From positions 88,729 through 152,728 of the forward strand of contig LSNK01000001.1 of the NCBI GenBank assembly GCA_003056085.1: 64,000 nucleotides of DNA. The letters are read 5' to 3'. Shown one piece after another: positions 1,183 through 36,320 of the stretch. Made by a program: the position numbers and the translations under genes. The notes under the pieces are model-generated. The model saw only the letters and a program-made list of their open reading frames with translations, was not told where the DNA came from and made no database searches. The DNA comes from Parcubacteria group bacterium M6-OD1-1 (lineage in GTDB: Bacteria > Patescibacteriota > Minisyncoccia > GWC2-36-17 > M10-OD1-4). Each line of letters opens with the position of its first letter. The stretch's first letter is position 1.

Positions 1183-1258
1183 AAATTTAGAATTTAGGAT
1201 ATAGAATTTTGAAGTTAGAATATAATTTTATAGCTTATATTCCATAATTTTGCGTAAT

Positions 1259-2444: not shown

Positions 2445-2502
2445 TTATTTAGCTTATTAGCTTATTTCAGCCCGCACTTTAGCGGAAACTTTTAGGAGAA
2501 AA

Positions 2503-2745: not shown

Positions 2746-2855
2746 ATTTAGCTTCTTAGCTTTTAGCCTCTTAGCTTTTAGCTAAAAATATTAATTTTTA
2801 TTTTCAATATACTACCCTATAAATTTCATTTTGACAAGGCAATCAACTAAAACGA

Positions 2856-9655: not shown

Positions 9656-10300
9656 TTATTTAAAAAACTTTATTAAAACTTTTTCAAATTCATCAGAAAC
9701 TTCTGACATTGAAGAATTACTGGGAATAAAATACATATTTTCAAATTTATCTTCCATTGCCTTAAAAGCATTCGCAGTTTTTTTTAAGAAATCTTCCTTT
9801 TTTTCAAAATACTCAAGACTTTCCCCGGACTTTCTATTCTTTAATCTCATAAAAGCAATGTCGGCAGGTATATCCATAATAAACATTAAGTCCGGTAAAA
9901 TAAAAGTGTCTCCTAATATATTTTTATGCTCTAACATCAAATCATCAAAATTCAAACCTTGCGCCATCCCATAAGCTAAAGTGGATAAAAAATACCTATC
10001 GCAGATATAAACAGAATTTTCTTTTTTCAAAATAGGTATAATTTCTGACATTAAATGCTCTTTCCTGTCTTTTATAAAAATTTTCTGAAATTCCATTAGA
10101 TCATCCGGAGTAGGCTCTTTCCCCTCTATAATATTTCTTGCTTTAATTCCTGCCTCCTGAGAAGATGGTTCATGCCCCGTATAAACATCATAATTTCTAT
10201 CTTTAAACCAACTTGCAATAAACTTAAGCTGAGTTGATTTACCCGAGCCGTCTATTCCGTCAATAGTTATAAATTTACCGGGATAAGAATTTTTTAACAT
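9656..10300 (-). CDS. tmk: Thymidylate kinase
   Basis: P-loop ITIDGIDGSGKSTQ, a DRY-like motif (ICDRYFLS) and a lid region. Confidence 0.9.
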   Translation of the reverse strand: MLKNSYPGKFITIDGIDGSGKSTQLKFIASWFKDRNYDVYTGHEPSSQEAGIKARNIIEGKEPTPDDLMEFQKIFIKDRKEHLMSEIIPILKKENSVYICDRYFLSTLAYGMAQGLNFDDLMLEHKNILGDTFILPDLMFIMDIPADIAFMRLKNRKSGESLEYFEKKEDFLKKTANAFKAMEDKFENMYFIPSNSSMSEVSDEFEKVLIKFFK

Positions 10301-10452
10301 AGAGTGTATATTATATTTTTCTTAAAACAAACAGCGCTTTTTATAATTGCTATTTCTAATAATATACTTGTTATATTACCTTAATAAAGAAACTTTGTGA
10401 AGAATCTAAAAAACAAAAACAGCCTCAGAAAAAGACTGTTTTTAAAAAATAT

Positions 10453-10878
10453 TTATTCTACGGTAATACCCATTGATCTTGCTGTCCCTTCAACAATACG
10501 AGAAGCCTGATCTACATCGTAAGCATTTAAATCAACCATTTTCTTTTCTGCTATCTCTTTTACCTGATCTTTTGTAACTTTCCCAATCTTTTTTTTATGA
10601 GGTTCACCTGACCCCTTTTCTACACCAGCCGCTTTTTTAAGCAGTTCTGCTGTAGGAGATGTTTTTAATTTAAATTCAAATGTTCTGTCTTCAAAAATTG
10701 TAATCTCAACAGGGACAACCTCTCCCATTTTGTCTTTTGTAGCTTCGTTATACTGTAAACAAAACTGCTGAATATTAAGTCCATGTGGACCAAGCGCTGT
10801 TCCTACGGGAGGCGCCGGATTTGCTTTCCCAGCCTGTATATTTATCTTAACTATTGTTTTTATTGGTTTATCTGCCAT
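10453..10878 (-). CDS. rplK: 50S ribosomal protein L11
   Basis: [30 protein letters not shown] is the canonical L11 sequence. Confidence 0.95.
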
Positions 10879-11010
10879 TTTTTTAGCTTATTAGCTTATT
10901 AGCTTATTTCAACCGGAGGCTGATCCGTCTTTGACGGAAGCTTTTTAGCTTAAAGTTACCTTAATTTATTAAACATTTTTATAAAAAATACATACTTTAT
11001 AAATAAAACT

Positions 11011-20829: not shown

Positions 20830-20857
20830 TTTTTAACTTATTAGATAATTAGTTTCA

Positions 20858-22285
20858 TTAGCTTATTAACTTTTCATAATCTTCTCCCGCCTTAAAAAGA
20901 GTCTCTTCACAAAACCATGGGGCTATAAACTGAAGACCCACAGGCATATTATTTATCTTACCGCAAGGAACGGAAATCGCAGGAACTCCCGCTAAATTTA
21001 TCGGTACAGTAAAAATATCTGCAAGATACATCGCAAGGGGATCTTCTGTTTTTTCACCAAACGAAAAAGCTGTCGTAGGAGTTGTCGGAGTTGCTATAAT
21101 ATCAACCTTACTGAAGGCTTTTTTAAAATCTTCTGTTATTTTTGTTCTAACTTGTTGCGCTCTTTTGTAGTAAGCATCGTAATATCCGGCTGACAAAACA
21201 TAAGTCCCGAGCATCATTCTTTTTTTAACTTCCGGCCCGATACCCTCCGCTCTTGAATTTAAATAAACAGATAATAGGTCTTCGCTATCGCTTTTGTGAG
21301 TGGAAAAACCGTATTTAATCCCATCGTATCTTGCCATATTTGAAGATACTTCTGCAGGCATAATAACATAATAAACAGATAGAGCATCCTTGGTATGAGG
21401 AAGATCTATTTCTTCAATCTTAGCTCCAGCATCTTCCATTTTTTTTATCTCATTTTTTATAACATCCTCAACTTTCTTATCCATTCCCTCAATAAAATAC
21501 TCTTTAGGAATACCTATTTTTAAATCCTTTAATCCTTTTTCTTGAAGTTTCTCAGGATACATCACACTCGTTGCATCTTTTTTATCTTTTCCTTTTATAC
21601 TCTCAAACACCACTCTTGCATCATCAACTGTTTTTGTCAGTGGACCTATCTGGTCCAAAGACGACGCCATAGCAATAAGTCCATACCTTGAAACAGCTCC
21701 GTATGTCGGCTTAAGTCCAACCACTCCGCAAAAAGAAGCCGGTTGACGAATAGACCCTCCTGTGTCTGACCCTAATGCAAAAACACATTGGTTTGAAGCG
21801 ACTGCAGCCGCAGAACCCCCGGAAGAACCACCTGGAACTCTGCTTAAATCATTTGGATTTTTTGTTTTAAAAAATGCTGAGTTTTCAGTGGAAGACCCCA
21901 TGGCAAACTCATCCATATTTGTTTTACCCAAAAAAACAGAATCTTGTTTTTTAAGCTTTAAAATAACCGTCGCATCATATGGGGCAACATAATTTTCCAA
22001 AATTTTAGATGATGCTGTTGCCTTTATCCCGTCAATTAAAATATTATCCTTTATGGCTGCCGGAATACCTGAAAGCATTGATATTTCATTGCCGTTTTTT
22101 ATAGCAAGATCAACTTTTTCAGCCTGCTTTTTTGCTTCTGAAAAATCATTGCTCAAAAATGCTTTTATATCTTTGTCTTTGCTTTTTATCTCATCCATAA
22201 AAAAATCTGTCAGCTCAAGCGCCGACATCTCTTTTTTCTTTAATTTTTCATGAATCTCACGAATTGAATTACTTAAAATCTCCAT
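20858..22285 (-). CDS. gatA: Glutamyl-tRNA(Gln) amidotransferase subunit A
   Basis: Amidase signature GGSSGGSAAAVA plus the Ser-cisSer-Lys triad context. Start assigned to MEILSNSIREI at 22285. The 31-codon upstream extension in the ORF track is low-complexity and overlaps the intergenic repeat. Confidence 0.9.
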   Translation of the reverse strand: MEILSNSIREIHEKLKKKEMSALELTDFFMDEIKSKDKDIKAFLSNDFSEAKKQAEKVDLAIKNGNEISMLSGIPAAIKDNILIDGIKATASSKILENYVAPYDATVILKLKKQDSVFLGKTNMDEFAMGSSTENSAFFKTKNPNDLSRVPGGSSGGSAAAVASNQCVFALGSDTGGSIRQPASFCGVVGLKPTYGAVSRYGLIAMASSLDQIGPLTKTVDDARVVFESIKGKDKKDATSVMYPEKLQEKGLKDLKIGIPKEYFIEGMDKKVEDVIKNEIKKMEDAGAKIEEIDLPHTKDALSVYYVIMPAEVSSNMARYDGIKYGFSTHKSDSEDLLSVYLNSRAEGIGPEVKKRMMLGTYVLSAGYYDAYYKRAQQVRTKITEDFKKAFSKVDIIATPTTPTTAFSFGEKTEDPLAMYLADIFTVPINLAGVPAISVPCGKINNMPVGLQFIAPWFCEETLFKAGEDYEKLIS

Positions 22286-25813: not shown

Positions 25814-26377
25814 TTACTTCCAATTAAATAGATATCCTTTTACAGAGATATCACAATTAACACCGCAGATTACATCCGACTGAACAGTAATACTGTCTAC
25901 GCTCGTTTTTTGCAAAGTTATAGTTCTTGTAAAGTCTGTGTTTGCAACAGAGCCGGCACCAGCTGTGTTATGAACATAATAACCATCAGAAAGTTTTATG
26001 CTGTAACCGGAACTCAAAGAACTGCAATTAACATCAAAAACAGAATCATTATATTGAATACATCCAACTTTTGACTGTCCGGTGCTCAAATCATCTGTAA
26101 TCCCAAAATCCCATACATTTCCATCAATCCAATTTATATCTCTTATGTTTCTTACAAGCTCAATTCCTTCTTGAGCCAACTGGGCGGCTATCAATCTTTT
26201 TTTTACTTCAGGAGCCAATTTGGTGGAGTTAACAATAGCCCCAACAGATGCCGTAACGCCAACCGTAAGAATAGTCACCGCCACTAAAACTTCTATCAAA
26301 GTAAAACCTTTATTAGTTTTTAGATTACAGGTTTTAGGTTTTAGATTTTTATCTATTTTTGATTTTAAATTTTTCAT
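25814..26377 (-). CDS. Prepilin-type minor pilin, GspI/PilV-like
   Basis: KGFTLIEVLVAVTILTVGV then AAQLAQEGIELVRN. The probable start is the internal MKNLKSKIDK at 26377. Leader and upstream 60 nt are near-identical to those of the 25203 gene. Confidence 0.6.
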   Translation of the reverse strand: MKNLKSKIDKNLKPKTCNLKTNKGFTLIEVLVAVTILTVGVTASVGAIVNSTKLAPEVKKRLIAAQLAQEGIELVRNIRDINWIDGNVWDFGITDDLSTGQSKVGCIQYNDSVFDVNCSSLSSGYSIKLSDGYYVHNTAGAGSVANTDFTRTITLQKTSVDSITVQSDVICGVNCDISVKGYLFNWK

Positions 26378-27782: not shown

Positions 27783-27905
27783 AGTTAAGCAATAAGTTAG
27801 AAAGTTGAAAGCAAGCTCTCCACTTTCTTATATGATACCAAAATATAAGACAAATAAAAACAAAGACCTTATAAGGTCTTTGTTTTTATAAAATTTTCTC
27901 AAAAA

Positions 27906-29267
27906 TCACCTATACCAAACCTCCCAATTATAATATCCAAAACTTGAAGACAAATCTCTTTCTTCAACATCCAGTCTGGATATAAGACCGCCATTCCAAT
28001 CAACCCCTTCTGTGTAAGTACAGTATCCCGTACCGCCCTGTTGTATCCACTTTCCGGGATAGGAAGGATCATTTGAAGCTCTCCCTGTATCATCGGAACA
28101 AGTTTTCATAAGAGTTCCATTTATAATTAAACTTATCCTATCATTATTTAACCCAAAACTTCCCGATCCACTACTATTAGTGCCGGAAAAACCTATATCT
28201 GGACACTGAAAAGGAAAAGAGCCTTCTAAAAATTCACTTGCCCCCGAAACAACTTCACCTCCAATACAAAAATCGTCCCATTTATTTGAAGCTTTAAATA
28301 CTATTTCAGACACTGTGCCCAAAGGCCAATTAAAAATTTTACCCTCCACTCTTTGCATAATTTCTCCAGAATCCGTTACCCATGTAATTCCGGAGCTTTG
28401 TAAAGTTATTGTCGCCGTTTGAATCCAATCACTTCCCTTGGCAAGAAGAGTCCACCCTCCTGATGATGCCGCGCTGCCAACATCATCAATTTCGCAAACA
28501 ACTGTACCATCTTGATTTACAACCCTTATGGAAGACCCCGCGGCACAAGTTCCTGAAACTCTTGTTTGTATTGAAGCATTATCAACATCAGCGCTTGTTA
28601 AACTTCCGTCAATAACTTCAATTGTCCCGACGGAGTCAGCGCCTAAAGCCGTGCCTGCATTATCAACTCCATCGGCAAAACCTGCCGGTATTCCTGTAAG
28701 TTCAGACCAATCAACACCATCTTTTACATTTGTTTGAACCGTTGGGTCGGTTTCTGCCGCTGTTCCGGTATCATCAACATTATCGGCAAAGCCTGCCGGT
28801 ATTCCTGTGAGCTCAGACCAATCAACCCCGTCTTTTACATTTGCCTGAACCGTTGGATCGGTTTCTGAAGTAAGTCCGCCTATACACCCTGTAGAATCAC
28901 AAATAGTCCCGCTTGCCGTTACATCTCCGTTGTTTCGTATTGTAAGCCTGTTTTCCAATCCGGTTTGAGTTCGTGCTTGAAATGTTAAATTGTCAGCCAA
29001 GTTGGATACTTGCCAATATTGCGTCCCTCCTTCAGAAAAAAACCTTGCGCCTCGTTCAAGCCACAAATTAGAACCTAAAGTAAGACCTCCTTCTTTCCTT
29101 TGATTTTGGGCTCCAACATTTAAAGGAGCAGGGAGATTATTTTGGGGCGGGCTTGCTGTTATTCCCACCCATTGAGCAGATGTCTCTTTTACAATGGCCG
29201 CTCCCAAAAAGCTTAAAAAAACTAAGGCTACTGCCGTAAAAAATATATTTAAAAACTTTTTACCCAT
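27906..29267 (-). CDS. Large secreted repeat protein embedded in the pilus locus (candidate pilus-associated adhesin)
   Basis: Signal peptide, AQWVGITASPPQNNLPAPLNV...GGLTLG N-module shared with the 2856 protein. The ETDPTVQ.NVKDGVDWSELTGIPAGFADxVD repeat occurs twice (tail-fibre-like), then a Cys-containing C-terminal domain. Confidence 0.6.
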   Translation of the reverse strand: MGKKFLNIFFTAVALVFLSFLGAAIVKETSAQWVGITASPPQNNLPAPLNVGAQNQRKEGGLTLGSNLWLERGARFFSEGGTQYWQVSNLADNLTFQARTQTGLENRLTIRNNGDVTASGTICDSTGCIGGLTSETDPTVQANVKDGVDWSELTGIPAGFADNVDDTGTAAETDPTVQTNVKDGVDWSELTGIPAGFADGVDNAGTALGADSVGTIEVIDGSLTSADVDNASIQTRVSGTCAAGSSIRVVNQDGTVVCEIDDVGSAASSGGWTLLAKGSDWIQTATITLQSSGITWVTDSGEIMQRVEGKIFNWPLGTVSEIVFKASNKWDDFCIGGEVVSGASEFLEGSFPFQCPDIGFSGTNSSGSGSFGLNNDRISLIINGTLMKTCSDDTGRASNDPSYPGKWIQQGGTGYCTYTEGVDWNGGLISRLDVEERDLSSSFGYYNWEVWYR

Positions 29268-29270
29268 TGA

Positions 29271-29298
29271 CTTAATTCTTAATTCTTAATTCTTAATT
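29271..29298. repeat. Perfect heptanucleotide tandem repeat (CTTAATT)x4 starting 4 nt upstream of the start codon of the 27906..29267 gene
   Basis: cttaattcttaattcttaattcttaatt read directly from the sequence. On the mRNA strand it is (AAUUAAG)4-UCA-AUG. Confidence 0.9.
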
Positions 29299-29384
29299 TA
29301 TTATATCATACAAATAAACTATAACAAATAAAAAAACAACCCTTTAAAAAGGGCTGTTTTTTTATTTGTCTTATGAAAACAAAA

Positions 29385-29861
29385 TTAATTTTCTACGCAC
29401 GCAGCGGCAGCTATATTTTTTTCTGAACATCCTGTTGAGTCACAAATAAAAGCATAGCTATTCCTTCCTTCAAGATCAGCACCAACGCAGTAAGTACCAT
29501 CATCACCCTCAGCGGTCAGATTTTTATAAACATATGTATTCCCTGTAGGATCTCCCGGCGATGTTGGTAGAAACGTATTAAAAGCAGGAGATCCATCAGC
29601 GGTATTTATACAACGAGTAGCAGCCCATCCATTTCCAGCCGCACAAGCCTCATCTGTATTCACATAACCAAATGTACCTTGTGAATCCGCAAATAAAACC
29701 TGAGCAGTGTTGATAGCCTGCATATCCGCCTGTCTTTTGGCGTCTCTTGCTTTTACTCTTGCACTGTTTAAAGAAACAAGAACAATAGAAGATAATATTC
29801 CGATAATAGCGATAACAACTAAAAGTTCAATCAGTGTAAAACCTTTTTGATTTTTTTTCAT
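29385..29861 (-). CDS. pilA: Type IV major pilin (PilA-like)
   Basis: MKKNQKGFTLIELLVVIAIIGILSSIVLVSL is the classic type IVa prepilin N-terminus. 158 aa with a C-terminal Cys pair. Confidence 0.85.
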   Translation of the reverse strand: MKKNQKGFTLIELLVVIAIIGILSSIVLVSLNSARVKARDAKRQADMQAINTAQVLFADSQGTFGYVNTDEACAAGNGWAATRCINTADGSPAFNTFLPTSPGDPTGNTYVYKNLTAEGDDGTYCVGADLEGRNSYAFICDSTGCSEKNIAAAACVEN

Positions 29862-30157
29862 AATTATATTATTAAATTATTAAGCTCTGTCCTTCAATAT
29901 TTTTGTATCAAATTAGCAGAACTTTTCCATAAGCCCCAAGCTTGTAAAGAATATATTAATATTCTAAGGCTTATAAATTTCTTTTTAGCGATACGACCTT
30001 TTTTTAAGTTTTTAACTATACCCCTTAATTATATTATACAAATACTTTTTGAACAACACTTGCTGTGAATAACTCCTTGTGTTAGGTGGTAGTGATTTAG
30101 AAAATAAGTTTTAGTTTATAGTTGTTAGACGTTATAATTTCCCCCCTATAACCTAAG

Positions 30158-31363: not shown

Positions 31364-31430
31364 TTGTTCAAGTTATGGTTATTAGATTATAGTTGTTAAG
31401 AACAATAACCTAATTACTACAACCTATCAT

Positions 31431-36162: not shown

Positions 36163-36320
36163 AGTTAAAAGTTAAAAATTAAAACCTTATGGTAATTATA
36201 CAATAAAAGTTGAAAATAAAAAAATTTATTTATACTTAATAATTGATGAGTTATAGATTGCAGTAATTTATAAAAAATAGCCTATAAACTAACACCCGCC
36301 TCTAATTCTTCAATAACAAA

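What the first reader, a model, noticed from the sequence alone, without database searches (positions are those of the whole stretch)
29271..29298. (CTTAATT)x4 heptamer tract abutting the start codon of the pilus-locus surface protein, a phase-variation candidate
A perfect four-unit tandem heptanucleotide repeat starts 4 nt upstream of the ATG of the 27906..29267 gene, inside its 5' UTR and promoter-proximal region. Short tandem repeats in promoters and leaders of surface adhesin genes are the classic substrate for slipped-strand mispairing. Unit-number changes would alter promoter spacing or the translation-initiation context.
Basis: partly seen in the sequence, partly recalled or inferred. 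Interest (0 to 1): 0.55.

Follow-up and report, generated by a model that had tools for sequence, protein, structure and literature searches.

The report
Heptamer-repeat mRNA leader, not a switch
The four-copy 7-base repeat is real and forms almost the whole untranslated leader of a pilus-locus gene, but the same kind of repeat also precedes ribosomal-protein and other housekeeping genes in this Shine-Dalgarno-free Parcubacteria lineage and never changed length in any assembly examined, so it looks like a lineage-typical translation-start leader rather than an on/off switch for a surface protein.

Summary
In detail: (CTTAATT)x4 lies at 29271-29298, which reads (AATTAAG)x4-TCA-ATG on the minus strand. 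It starts 2 nt after a TG-extended -10 (TTGTTA-16-TATAAT), is predicted unpaired, and has no SD.

The phase-variation reading is weakly supported.
- The tract lies downstream of the -10. Changing the unit number alters neither promoter spacing, nor the reading frame, nor the ATG-proximal context.
- Six assemblies or datasets of this population all show four units.
- The -10-to-ATG distance is 29-32 nt in all orthologs, with or without repeats.
- Similar period-7/8 arrays abut the ATG of smc, nusB, rpmF, rplK, the major pilin and others in this window. They are unchanged in strains about 2% diverged.

Across about 440 gene starts from related Patescibacteria, period 7 is specifically over-represented upstream of starts (12 observed, about 0.1 expected). 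Arrays occur only where SD use is low.

The closest precedent is the TAACTGA heptamer leaders of Beggiatoaceae and cyanobacteria. Here the units differ from locus to locus.

Best reading: an SD-independent leader built and homogenised by replication slippage. Read-level data are still needed to exclude slow rheostat-type variation.

The parts
29271..29298 (-). (AATTAAG)x4 perfect heptamer array. It makes up nearly the whole 5' untranslated leader of the 453-aa gene.
   Evidence: Predicted fully unpaired in the RNA MFE structure. TAA stops in all three frames.
29268..29270 (-). TCA spacer between the array and the start codon
27906..29267 (-). 453-aa gene: signal/membrane helix followed by repeated ETDPTV..DWSELTGIPAGFADGVDD modules. 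No Pfam family. It is an accessory gene in the slot between the major pilin and the prepilin peptidase.
   Evidence: The slot is variable between relatives.
29300..29327 (-). sigma-70-type promoter TTGTTA (29327-29322), 16-nt spacer, TG-extended TATAAT (29305-29300). It is conserved as TTGTCA-16-TGATATAAT in the 77% ortholog.
   Evidence: 10/12 matches, TG present
29323..29370 (-). intrinsic terminator hairpin of the upstream pilin gene (22-nt arms, T-run)
29385..29861 (-). major type IV pilin gene (N_methyl motif)
29863..29883 (-). period-8 array (TTAATAAT-like, 2.6 copies) ending 1 nt before the pilin ATG
10883..10908 (-). (TAAGCTAA)x3.2 array ending 4 nt before the rplK (L11) ATG
   Evidence: Unchanged in L094-L096.
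2747..2783 (-). (AGCTAAA/AGCTAAGA)x5 array ending 1 nt before the rpmF (L32) ATG
   Evidence: Unchanged in the 98.1% strain L103.
2449..2466 (-). (TAAGCTAA)x2.2 array ending 4 nt before the nusB ATG
1184..1224 (-). imperfect (CTAAATT)-type array ending 1 nt before the smc ATG
20833..20872 (-). imperfect octamer array (TAAGYTAA-like) that fills the gatA-orf183 spacer and ends 3 nt before the ATG
36163..36184 (-). (TTTTAAC)x3 array directly abutting the ATG of orf174, which lies between pilM and pilO
   Evidence: Unchanged in the 98.4-99% strains L109-L112.
26313..26349 (-). imperfect heptamer array (AAAAYCT) inside the coding region for the prepilin leader peptide of a minor pilin (MKNLKSKIDKNLKPKTCNLKTNKG|FTLIE)
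31364..31392 (-). degenerate heptamer leader (ATAATCT AATAACC ATAACTT) of pilC. Its orthologous leaders carry clean arrays in three relatives.

Best explanation
The tract is the untranslated leader of the mRNA. Transcription starts from the conserved TTGTTA-16-TGATATAAT promoter, probably within the first unit. The transcript therefore carries about 3 to 3.5 AATTAAG units plus TCA before the AUG.

The organism is a Parcubacteria/Paceibacterota-type Patescibacterium that makes almost no use of Shine-Dalgarno pairing. In this lineage the 20-40 nt next to start codons are often built from tandem 7-nt (sometimes 8-nt) A/T-rich, G-poor units. I infer that the array works as an SD-independent ribosome-loading leader: it is open and A-rich, and its exact unit sequence matters little. 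I also infer that its repeated form is produced and kept homogeneous by replication slippage (concerted evolution).

Unit number sets leader length and may tune translation over evolutionary time. It is not a fast ON/OFF switch.

Shown: the position of the tract relative to promoter and ATG; the absence of SD; the lack of predicted structure; the lineage-wide, period-specific occurrence, including at housekeeping genes; length stability across assemblies and strains.
Inferred: the transcription start site; the role in initiation; the slippage origin.
For: - Anatomy: the tract begins 2 nt after a 10/12, TG-extended -10, which itself follows a strong terminator. The leader is entirely unpaired in the MFE structure.
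- SD use: only 2 of 56 genes in the window have an SD-like 4-mer at -20..-4. In the close family the fraction is 0-12%.
- Same design elsewhere in the window: arrays end 0-4 nt before the ATG of smc, nusB, rpmF, rplK, orf183, pilin and orf174. The joint probability under uniform placement within their intergenic regions is about 4e-12.
- Period specificity: over about 440 starts in related loci, a self-shift score >=10 in -42..-1 was seen 12 times for period 7, 4 times for period 8 and 0-2 times for every other period from 3 to 13. Shuffles gave about 0.1 and coding DNA gave 0.
- Link to SD loss: arrays occur only in SD-poor loci, 22 of 413 genes against 0 of 168, Fisher p = 6e-4.
- Relatives: rplK leaders carry arrays with unrelated units, such as ATTCGTA, ATCGGTA, ATTTGYA and ATTCTAA. 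The orthologous pilC leader has arrays in four species with different unit and copy number.
- Leader length: the -10-to-ATG distance is 29-32 nt in all orthologs, with or without repeats.
- Stability: the target has 4 units in 6 assemblies or datasets. Four other arrays are identical in strains 1-2% diverged, with 1 SNP in 280 nt where about 5 were expected.
- Start regions are generally open: -3.9 against -7.3 kcal/mol for internal coding windows, p = 1.5e-9.
- Literature: a Parcubacteria subgroup lacks the anti-SD (PMC9297842). Heptamer repeats that abut start codons, overlap the RBS and also precede r-protein genes are described in Beggiatoaceae, cyanobacteria and Bacteroidetes (PMC4679880).
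Against: - No expression, TSS or ribosome data exist for this organism, so the role in initiation is inferred.
- Array-bearing start regions are not less structured than other start regions in the window (-4.65 against -3.83 kcal/mol, not significant). The repeat form adds nothing measurable to openness.
- The strong preference for period 7 is not explained by 'any open A-rich leader will do'.
- In relatives, some arrays lie just after stop codons, in mid-intergenic positions, or as inverted pairs. Not all arrays are leaders.
- The 16S rRNA of this genome was not available, so loss of the anti-SD is inferred from the lack of SD motifs and from the literature.
- All assemblies covering the target tract are 100% identical clones of one population.
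Confidence: 0.55

Rival explanations
1. Contingency locus. Slipped-strand mispairing changes the number of AATTAAG units at high frequency. The resulting change in leader length switches or grades expression of a pilus-associated surface protein, as with the (ATCTTTC)n tract of H. influenzae hmw1A/hmw2A.
For: - The four perfect units imply recent slippage.
- Unit number and perfection differ from the 77% ortholog, and the tract is absent in more distant orthologs.
- The gene is a variable accessory gene for a probable surface protein in a T4P locus.
- The T4P loci of this family are rich in arrays. Some perfect arrays lie inside prepilin leader-peptide coding sequence, where a change of one unit would frameshift the gene.
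- Graded control by 5'-UTR heptamer number is known for hmw (PMC12721329).
Against: - There are only 4 units, whereas natural hmw tracts have 11-63.
- The tract is downstream of the -10 and outside the ORF, so neither promoter spacing nor reading frame changes.
- The ATG-proximal context does not change with unit number.
- There is no complementary partner to form an hmw-like hairpin.
- Six assemblies or datasets all show 4 units.
- Leader length is conserved at 29-32 nt among orthologs.
- The same design precedes rplK, rpmF, nusB and smc.
- Other arrays are invariant in strains 1-2% diverged.
Confidence: 0.15
2. Multivalent binding platform. The period-7 array is read as single-stranded RNA by a protein whose binding sites are spaced about 7 nt apart. 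Candidates are ribosomal protein S1, a cold-shock-domain protein or another OB-fold protein. This protein would recruit ribosomes or regulate translation, so periodicity rather than mere openness is the selected feature.
For: - The preference for period 7 (and 8) over all other periods is sharp.
- Arrays are anchored to the start codon.
- An array is retained at the orthologous pilC leader in four species although the unit sequence changes.
- Array leaders are more conserved than the genome average between strains.
- MacGregor 2015 proposed S1, Csp and CsrA as readers of TAACTGA repeats.
Against: - Units differ between genes of the same genome (AATTAAG, TAAGCTAA, CTAAATT, TTTTAAC), so no single sequence-specific reader fits.
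- Some arrays occur in the opposite sense or away from starts.
- No candidate protein was identified or tested here.
Confidence: 0.15
3. Neutral by-product. In an SD-free lineage the segment between the -10 and the ATG is the only unconstrained part of a compact intergenic region. Slippage-generated microsatellites would then accumulate there, and in cleaved leader peptides, without any function of their own. The period preference would reflect a mutational bias of the replication and repair machinery.
For: - Arrays confer no extra openness.
- Arrays occur only where SD constraint is absent.
- They also occur in leader-peptide coding sequence, after stop codons and in mid-intergenic positions in relatives.
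- Unit sequences are arbitrary.
Against: - In the window, arrays sit 0-4 nt from the ATG even in intergenic regions of 246-296 nt.
- Arrays persist at the same leader across species at about 72% LigA identity.
- Array leaders carry fewer SNPs than expected between strains.
Confidence: 0.15

Closest known systems
TAACTGA heptamer direct repeats upstream of start codons in marine Beggiatoaceae, some Cyanobacteria and Bacteroidetes (MacGregor 2015, PMC4679880)
   Same: Both are period-7 direct repeats of 2-6 copies in forward orientation that end a few nt before the start codon. Both overlap the expected RBS and lack an SD. Both give stop codons in all three frames. Both occur at many loci per genome, including ribosomal-protein genes, with no functional theme. 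In both, relatives differ in unit number. Function is unproven; translational roles via S1 or Csp have been proposed.
   Different: There, one unit (TAACTGA) dominates a genome and related heptamers are rare as repeats. Here, every locus has its own unit (AATTAAG, TAAGCTAA, CTAAATT, TTTTAAC...) and orthologous leaders change unit between species. This is a different phylum (Patescibacteria) with near-total absence of SD. Octamer arrays and arrays inside prepilin leader-peptide coding sequence also occur.
H. influenzae hmw1A/hmw2A (ATCTTTC)n 5'-UTR simple sequence repeat (PMC12721329; PMC8262952)
   Same: Both are heptanucleotide tandem repeats transcribed as part of the 5' UTR of a surface-protein gene, between promoter and start codon.
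   Different: hmw tracts have 11-63 units. They form a long hairpin with a G-rich right arm that RNase III processes, and they show within-population length variation that is inversely related to expression. Here there are 4 units, no complementary arm, a leader predicted unpaired, no length variation in six assemblies, and the same design at housekeeping genes.
Cyanobacterial heptamer repeats: STRR sequences (from my own knowledge: Mazel et al. 1990) and Nostoc PCC 7120 contiguous heptamers near start codons (bioRxiv 10.1101/2022.06.06.494920)
   Same: Both are contiguous heptamers in non-coding DNA close to, or overlapping, start codons and promoters. A global regulatory or translational role is suspected but unresolved.
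   Different: They occur in a different phylum with genome-wide recurrent units (for example TTTTGAA). Those genomes do use SD.
SD-independent initiation on open, A-rich leaders (Bacteroidetes-type), and AU-rich or TMV-omega-type translational enhancers (from my own knowledge)
   Same: Both involve a G-poor, A/U-rich leader with no SD and little structure around the start codon. The omega leader also contains short direct repeats.
   Different: Those leaders are not generally tandem arrays with a fixed period of 7 nt. The mechanism was not tested here.
V. cholerae ctxAB promoter TTTTGAT heptad repeats (bioRxiv 10.1101/2021.05.14.444153)
   Same: Both are tandem heptamers whose number differs between strains and that lie upstream of a gene.
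   Different: The ctx heptads lie upstream of the -35 and are double-stranded DNA binding sites for ToxR and H-NS. The tract here lies downstream of the -10, in the transcribed leader.

Membership tests
SSR-mediated phase-variable (contingency) locus | A simple sequence repeat in the promoter, 5' UTR or ORF of the gene | tested here: met
   Perfect 4 x 7 nt tract in the 5' leader
SSR-mediated phase-variable (contingency) locus | A change in unit number has a predictable effect on expression (-35/-10 spacing, reading frame, or a defined regulatory structure) | tested here: not met
   The tract is downstream of the -10 and outside the ORF. The ATG-proximal context does not change with unit number. 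There is no hairpin partner. Only leader length would change.
SSR-mediated phase-variable (contingency) locus | Tract-length polymorphism within populations or between closely related strains | tested here: inconclusive
   Six assemblies or datasets all have 4 units, but their flanks are 100% identical. No reads could be examined and no diverged strain covers this tract. Other arrays of the species are invariant at 1-2% divergence.
SSR-mediated phase-variable (contingency) locus | Tract long enough for high slippage rates (natural hmw heptamer tracts have at least 11 units) | tested here: not met
   4 units here, against 11-63 in hmw
SSR-mediated phase-variable (contingency) locus | Repeats preferentially associated with surface or contingency genes rather than housekeeping genes | tested here: not met
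   The same arrays abut smc, nusB, rpmF and rplK. There is only a modest excess in the T4P locus.
Start-codon-proximal heptamer direct-repeat leaders (MacGregor 2015 type) | Direct repeats of a 7-nt unit, 2-6 copies per set | tested here: met
   4.0 copies, period 7
Start-codon-proximal heptamer direct-repeat leaders (MacGregor 2015 type) | Forward orientation, ending within a few nt upstream of the start codon and overlapping the expected RBS, with no SD | tested here: met
   The tract ends at -4 and the leader has no GGAG, GAGG or AGGA
Start-codon-proximal heptamer direct-repeat leaders (MacGregor 2015 type) | Many sets per genome with no functional theme, essential genes included | tested here: met
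   At least 8 sets in 64 kb, including r-protein genes. Relatives show the same.
Start-codon-proximal heptamer direct-repeat leaders (MacGregor 2015 type) | Forward repeats give stop codons in all three frames | tested here: met
   TAA occurs in frames 0, 1 and 2
Start-codon-proximal heptamer direct-repeat leaders (MacGregor 2015 type) | One specific unit (TAACTGA) shared by all sets of a genome | tested here: not met
   Units differ from locus to locus, and none is TAACTGA
Altered SD:anti-SD pairing (16S 3' tail complementary to the recurrent TAAGCTAA word) | A 16S rRNA 3' tail containing UUAGCUUA | tested here: not met
   Scanning 185,579 species genomes for GTCGTAACAAGGTA-N20-45-TTAGCTTA gave only 6 chance hits, all in unrelated phyla. 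The genome's own 16S was not available.
Known cis-regulatory RNA families (Rfam) | A match at or above a family's gathering score | tested here: not met
   No gathering-level hit apart from tRNAs. The E-value scan gave only sub-threshold hits on the terminator hairpin.

The most novel reading that the evidence does not exclude
Start-codon-anchored period-7 arrays are a distinct translation-initiation and regulation element that replaces SD in Parcubacteria lacking the anti-SD. They would be read through their periodicity by an S1-, CSP- or other OB-fold-type single-stranded-RNA binder. In type IV pilus genes, arrays also lie inside the cleaved prepilin leader-peptide coding sequence, where a one-unit slip shifts the frame. 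There the same elements would double as slippage-driven contingency switches for pilus components, and the target tract would act as a graded (rheostat) member of that set.
Probability: 0.15. Interest if true: 0.75.

Novelty: new variant of a known kind. Interest (0 to 1): 0.45.

Why it matters
How ribosomes find start codons in Parcubacteria that lack the anti-Shine-Dalgarno sequence is an open question. PMC9297842 notes the loss but offers no alternative.

This locus and its relatives show a concrete sequence feature that can be counted. Period-7 arrays sit exactly where the SD would be, in front of ribosomal-protein and pilus genes alike. They are conserved as arrays while their unit sequence drifts. 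This makes the question testable, by reporter or in vitro translation assays that vary unit number, period and sequence, and by RNA pull-downs.

The result also guards against a systematic annotation error. SSR-based phase-variation predictors would flag many housekeeping genes in these genomes.

For the finding as given, the practical message is that it is most likely an ordinary leader for this lineage, not an adhesin switch.

Tried and rejected
(1) 16S tail complementary to the recurrent TAAGCTAA word. A scan of species genomes gave only 6 chance hits in unrelated phyla, so this is rejected.

(2) hmw-like hairpin. There is no inverted copy of the tract within +/-400 nt, and the leader is unpaired. 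Rejected.

(3) Known RNA family. None was found.

(4) 'Arrays make the start region less structured than other leaders.' This is not so: -4.65 against -3.83 kcal/mol, not significant.

(5) Strain comparison of the target tract. Orthologs are rare: P0001 at 100%, P0002 at 77%, then 40% or less. Exact-protein look-ups of the gene and its neighbours returned only clonal contigs. Contigs of the diverged strains break in the pilin gene or in the gene's internal 111-nt duplication. So no diverged allele of this tract could be seen.

(6) Structure prediction of the 453-aa protein. Mean pLDDT was 43.7, too poor for fold search. No Pfam hit.

(7) Three-frame stops as a termination-reinitiation device. 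The tract does contain them, but this gene has its own promoter directly after a terminator, so no upstream translation reaches it. TAA is also expected by chance in A/T-rich heptamers.

(8) Literature search for heptamer leaders in CPR, Parcubacteria or Patescibacteria. Nothing was found in the held library.

Full report
OBSERVATION. The tract is real. Window 29271-29298 is a perfect 4.0-copy repeat of CTTAATT (TRF score 56). On the coding (minus) strand it reads (AATTAAG)x4, then TCA, then the ATG at 29267 of the 453-aa ORF 27906-29267. No match with up to 3 mismatches occurred in 100 dinucleotide-preserving shuffles.

LOCAL ANATOMY. Reading on the minus strand, the order of features is as follows.
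- The major type IV pilin gene (29385-29861; N_methyl motif).
- A strong intrinsic terminator (29370-29323; 22-nt arms and a T-run).
- A sigma-70-type promoter, TTGTTA-16-TATAAT, with a TG extension (29327-29300; 10/12 matches).
- One A, then the tract, then TCA and the ATG.

The tract therefore starts 2 nt after the -10 hexamer and makes up essentially the whole 5' leader. The -10-to-ATG distance is 32 nt, and the inferred TSS falls in the first unit. The leader has no SD-like word. It is completely unpaired in the predicted MFE structure and has no inverted partner nearby. It matches no Rfam family. TAA stops occur in all three frames.

The gene lies in a complete type IV pilus locus: PilM, PilO, PilB, PilT, PilC, pilin, prepilin peptidase and three minor pilins.

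Its product has no Pfam family. It has an N-terminal hydrophobic helix, which is the only confident part of a poor AF2 model (pLDDT 43.7). It also has repeated ETDPTV..DWSELTGIPAGFADGVDD modules that are shared with 'tail-fibre domain' and C1q-like proteins of many phyla. A surface location is plausible. 'Adhesin' is untested.

THE SAME DESIGN ELSEWHERE IN THE WINDOW. TRF and direct inspection show tandem 7- or 8-nt arrays ending 0-4 nt before the ATG of eight genes in this window:
- smc (1184-1224)
- nusB (2449-2466, TAAGCTAA x2)
- rpmF/L32 (2747-2783)
- rplK/L11 (10883-10908, TAAGCTAA x3)
- orf183 (20833-20872)
- the major pilin (29863-29883)
- orf174, between pilM and pilO (36163-36184)
- the target gene

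If arrays were placed uniformly within their intergenic regions (76-296 nt), the joint probability of such proximity to the ATG is about 4e-12. Only 2 of 56 genes have an SD-like 4-mer at -20..-4. Instead, words such as CTAA, GCTAA, AAGCTA and TAAG are enriched. Start regions are much less structured than internal coding windows (-3.9 against -7.3 kcal/mol, p = 1.5e-9). However, array-bearing starts are no more open than other starts.

LINEAGE. LigA homologs place the organism among Parcubacteria/Paceibacterota-type Patescibacteria. rplK is followed by tmk, not rplA. Tsurumaki et al. 2022 report that a Parcubacteria subgroup, largely the uL1-lacking one, lacks the CCUCCU anti-SD (PMC9297842). 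The 16S of this genome was not available to me. A direct test of the idea that the 16S tail had changed to pair with TAAGCTAA was negative.

RELATIVES.
(a) rplK leaders. I fetched 80 metagenomic loci that encode L11 at 61-77% identity. Many low- and medium-GC ones carry heptamer arrays in front of rplK, with unrelated units: ATTCGTA, TTTCGTA, ATCGGTA x4, ATTTGYA, ATTCTAA, TACGCTN.
(b) Period specificity. Over about 440 gene starts from loci with GC <= 0.56, a self-shift score >=10 in -42..-1 occurred 12 times for period 7, 4 times for period 8 and 0-2 times for every other period from 3 to 13. Shuffles gave about 0.1 and coding DNA gave 0. Of the 17 strongest tandem repeats in 596 kb, 10 have period 7.
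(c) Link to SD use. Arrays occur only in SD-poor loci: 22 of 413 genes against 0 of 168, Fisher p = 6e-4.
(d) Close family (LigA 70-74% identical; L004, L097-L101). The orthologous pilC leader carries (ATAATTC)x5, (AACCTAN)x5 and (ATAACCT)x3 in three relatives, and a degenerate array in the window. gatC leaders also carry arrays. The array is thus retained while unit and copy number drift, which is concerted evolution.
(e) Other positions. Not all arrays are leaders. In relatives, some lie just after stop codons, some in mid-intergenic positions, and some occur as inverted pairs that would form long hairpins.

ORTHOLOGS OF THE TARGET GENE.
- The 77%-identical ortholog, found in two marine assemblies, keeps the terminator and the promoter (TTGTCA-16-TGATATAAT). 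Its leader is TAGTTTAGATTTAAAATTAAGAATTAAAA, which is about 2 clean AATTAAG units plus decayed heptamers, 29 nt in all.
- Three relatives at about 40% identity (L097, L004, L101) have a conserved, non-repeated leader of 30-32 nt after a TATACT -10.
- L098 lacks the gene, and L099 has other genes in the slot.

Leader length is therefore conserved at 29-32 nt. The perfect four-unit array is a recent, lineage-specific homogenisation.

STABILITY.
- The target tract has exactly four units in the window and in contigs from SRR14803397, SRR6439371, GCA_006243085.1 and GCA_006243105.1, plus one further similar contig that was not shown. All of these are 100% identical in their flanks.
- The rplK octamer tract has 3 units in three further contigs, one of which carries SNPs.
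- Diverged strains of the same species (98.1-99.2% identity; 79 and 73 SNPs over about 4.2-4.5 kb) cover the smc, nusB, rpmF and orf174 arrays. All four 70-nt leaders are unchanged in length. They carry 1 SNP in 280 nt, where about 5 were expected.
- Two datasets of a relative are identical through its arrays.

Arrays in this species therefore behave as conserved sequence, not as hypermutable tracts. No diverged strain covers the target tract itself, and reads could not be examined.

INTERPRETATION. The phase-variation rationale was 'a repeat in the leader of an adhesin gene'. That rationale fails for four reasons.
- The same design precedes ribosomal-protein and other core genes.
- The tract is downstream of the -10 and outside the ORF.
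- Unit number cannot change the ATG-proximal context.
- The tract is short compared with the one well-studied heptamer 5'-UTR switch. hmw tracts have 11-63 units and depend on a hairpin that RNase III processes (PMC12721329).

The best-supported reading is that this is a member of a lineage-wide class of start-codon-proximal heptamer-array leaders in an SD-free organism. These leaders are generated and homogenised by slippage and serve as the SD-independent ribosome-loading segment.

The closest precedent is MacGregor's TAACTGA repeats: 2-6 copies, ending a few nt before start codons, with no SD, present at r-protein genes, and giving three-frame stops (PMC4679880). The differences here are locus-specific units, a new phylum, octamer variants and arrays inside prepilin leader peptides. 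The function of that class is itself unproven.

Three rivals remain open, each at about 0.15: a slow rheostat-type contingency locus, a periodic protein-binding platform, and a neutral by-product of slippage in the only unconstrained segment. The sharp preference for period 7 is not explained by any of my tests.

In close relatives, perfect heptamer arrays lie inside the coding region for the cleaved prepilin leader peptide of minor pilins. An example is L097: ATGAAA(AAACTAC)x4.9...KG|FTLIE. There a one-unit slip would frameshift the gene, which is the classical contingency design. The window's own copy (26313-26349) is imperfect. This suggests that pilus genes of this family may be subject to slippage-based variation, although the target tract is not positioned to act that way.

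VERDICT. Novelty is 'new variant of a known kind'. Interest is moderate (0.45). That interest comes mainly from the lineage-wide period-7 leader phenomenon, which bears on how Parcubacteria that lack the anti-SD initiate translation.

Noticed in passing
window 26313-26349; L097 7777-7808 and 8419-8452; L101 2212-2235; L099 7811-7846 and 8475-8506: Heptamer arrays lie inside the coding sequence of the cleaved prepilin leader peptide of minor pilins, between the ATG and G|FT(L/M)IE. Some are perfect with 4.5-5 units. A one-unit slip would frameshift the gene, and point changes keep the annotated frame free of the TAA that a perfect array would place in it.
   Followed up: partly
window 28648-28867: The 453-aa gene contains a 111-nt tandem duplication (2 copies, 85% identical) that encodes the ETDPTV..DWSELTGIPAGFADGVDD module. 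Three independent short-read contigs (L091, L092, L093) end at 28831-28873, that is, at this repeat.
   Followed up: partly
window 9656-10878: rplK (L11) is followed by a thymidylate kinase gene rather than rplA (L1). Together with the near absence of SD motifs (2 of 56 genes), this fits the uL1-lacking, anti-SD-lacking Parcubacteria subgroup described by Tsurumaki et al. 2022. The 16S rRNA was not available to check.
   Followed up: partly
L073 5861-5921; L029 712-800; L055 5871-5990; L024 3592-3725; L097 8321-8383: Heptamer arrays occur as inverted pairs (for example GAGATTR x3, then 14 nt, then YAATCTC x3.5). Such pairs would fold into long hairpins built from repeats, mostly 70-100 nt upstream of rplK or between minor pilin genes.
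   Followed up: no
window 27783-29384 compared with L097, L098, L099, L101, L004: The slot between the major pilin and the prepilin peptidase is variable in this family. It holds the 453-aa gene here, 329-438-aa relatives at 40% identity in three species, nothing in L098, and three unrelated genes in L099.
   Followed up: partly
window 10909-10960 (minus strand, rplK leader): Upstream of the rplK octamer array, the leader contains small hairpins and the string GGATCAGCCTCCGG, which resembles the canonical 16S 3' end GGAUCACCUCC. The nusB leader shows a similar layout (a hairpin, then ...CTGA, then the array). The significance is unknown.
   Followed up: no
L097 4521-4578; L004 5055-5111; L099 3244-3279: In three relatives, long heptamer arrays start at or just after the stop codon of the gene upstream of the major pilin, far (126-410 nt) from the pilin start. 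So not all arrays are start-proximal leaders.
   Followed up: no
window 29500-29900 and about 42900 (inferred from the contig ranges of L108 and L109): Contigs from several assemblies, including the 98.4% strain GCA_003056185.1, appear to end inside or near the major pilin gene. This suggests strain-level heterogeneity of the pilin, and it prevented recovery of a diverged allele of the target tract.
   Followed up: no
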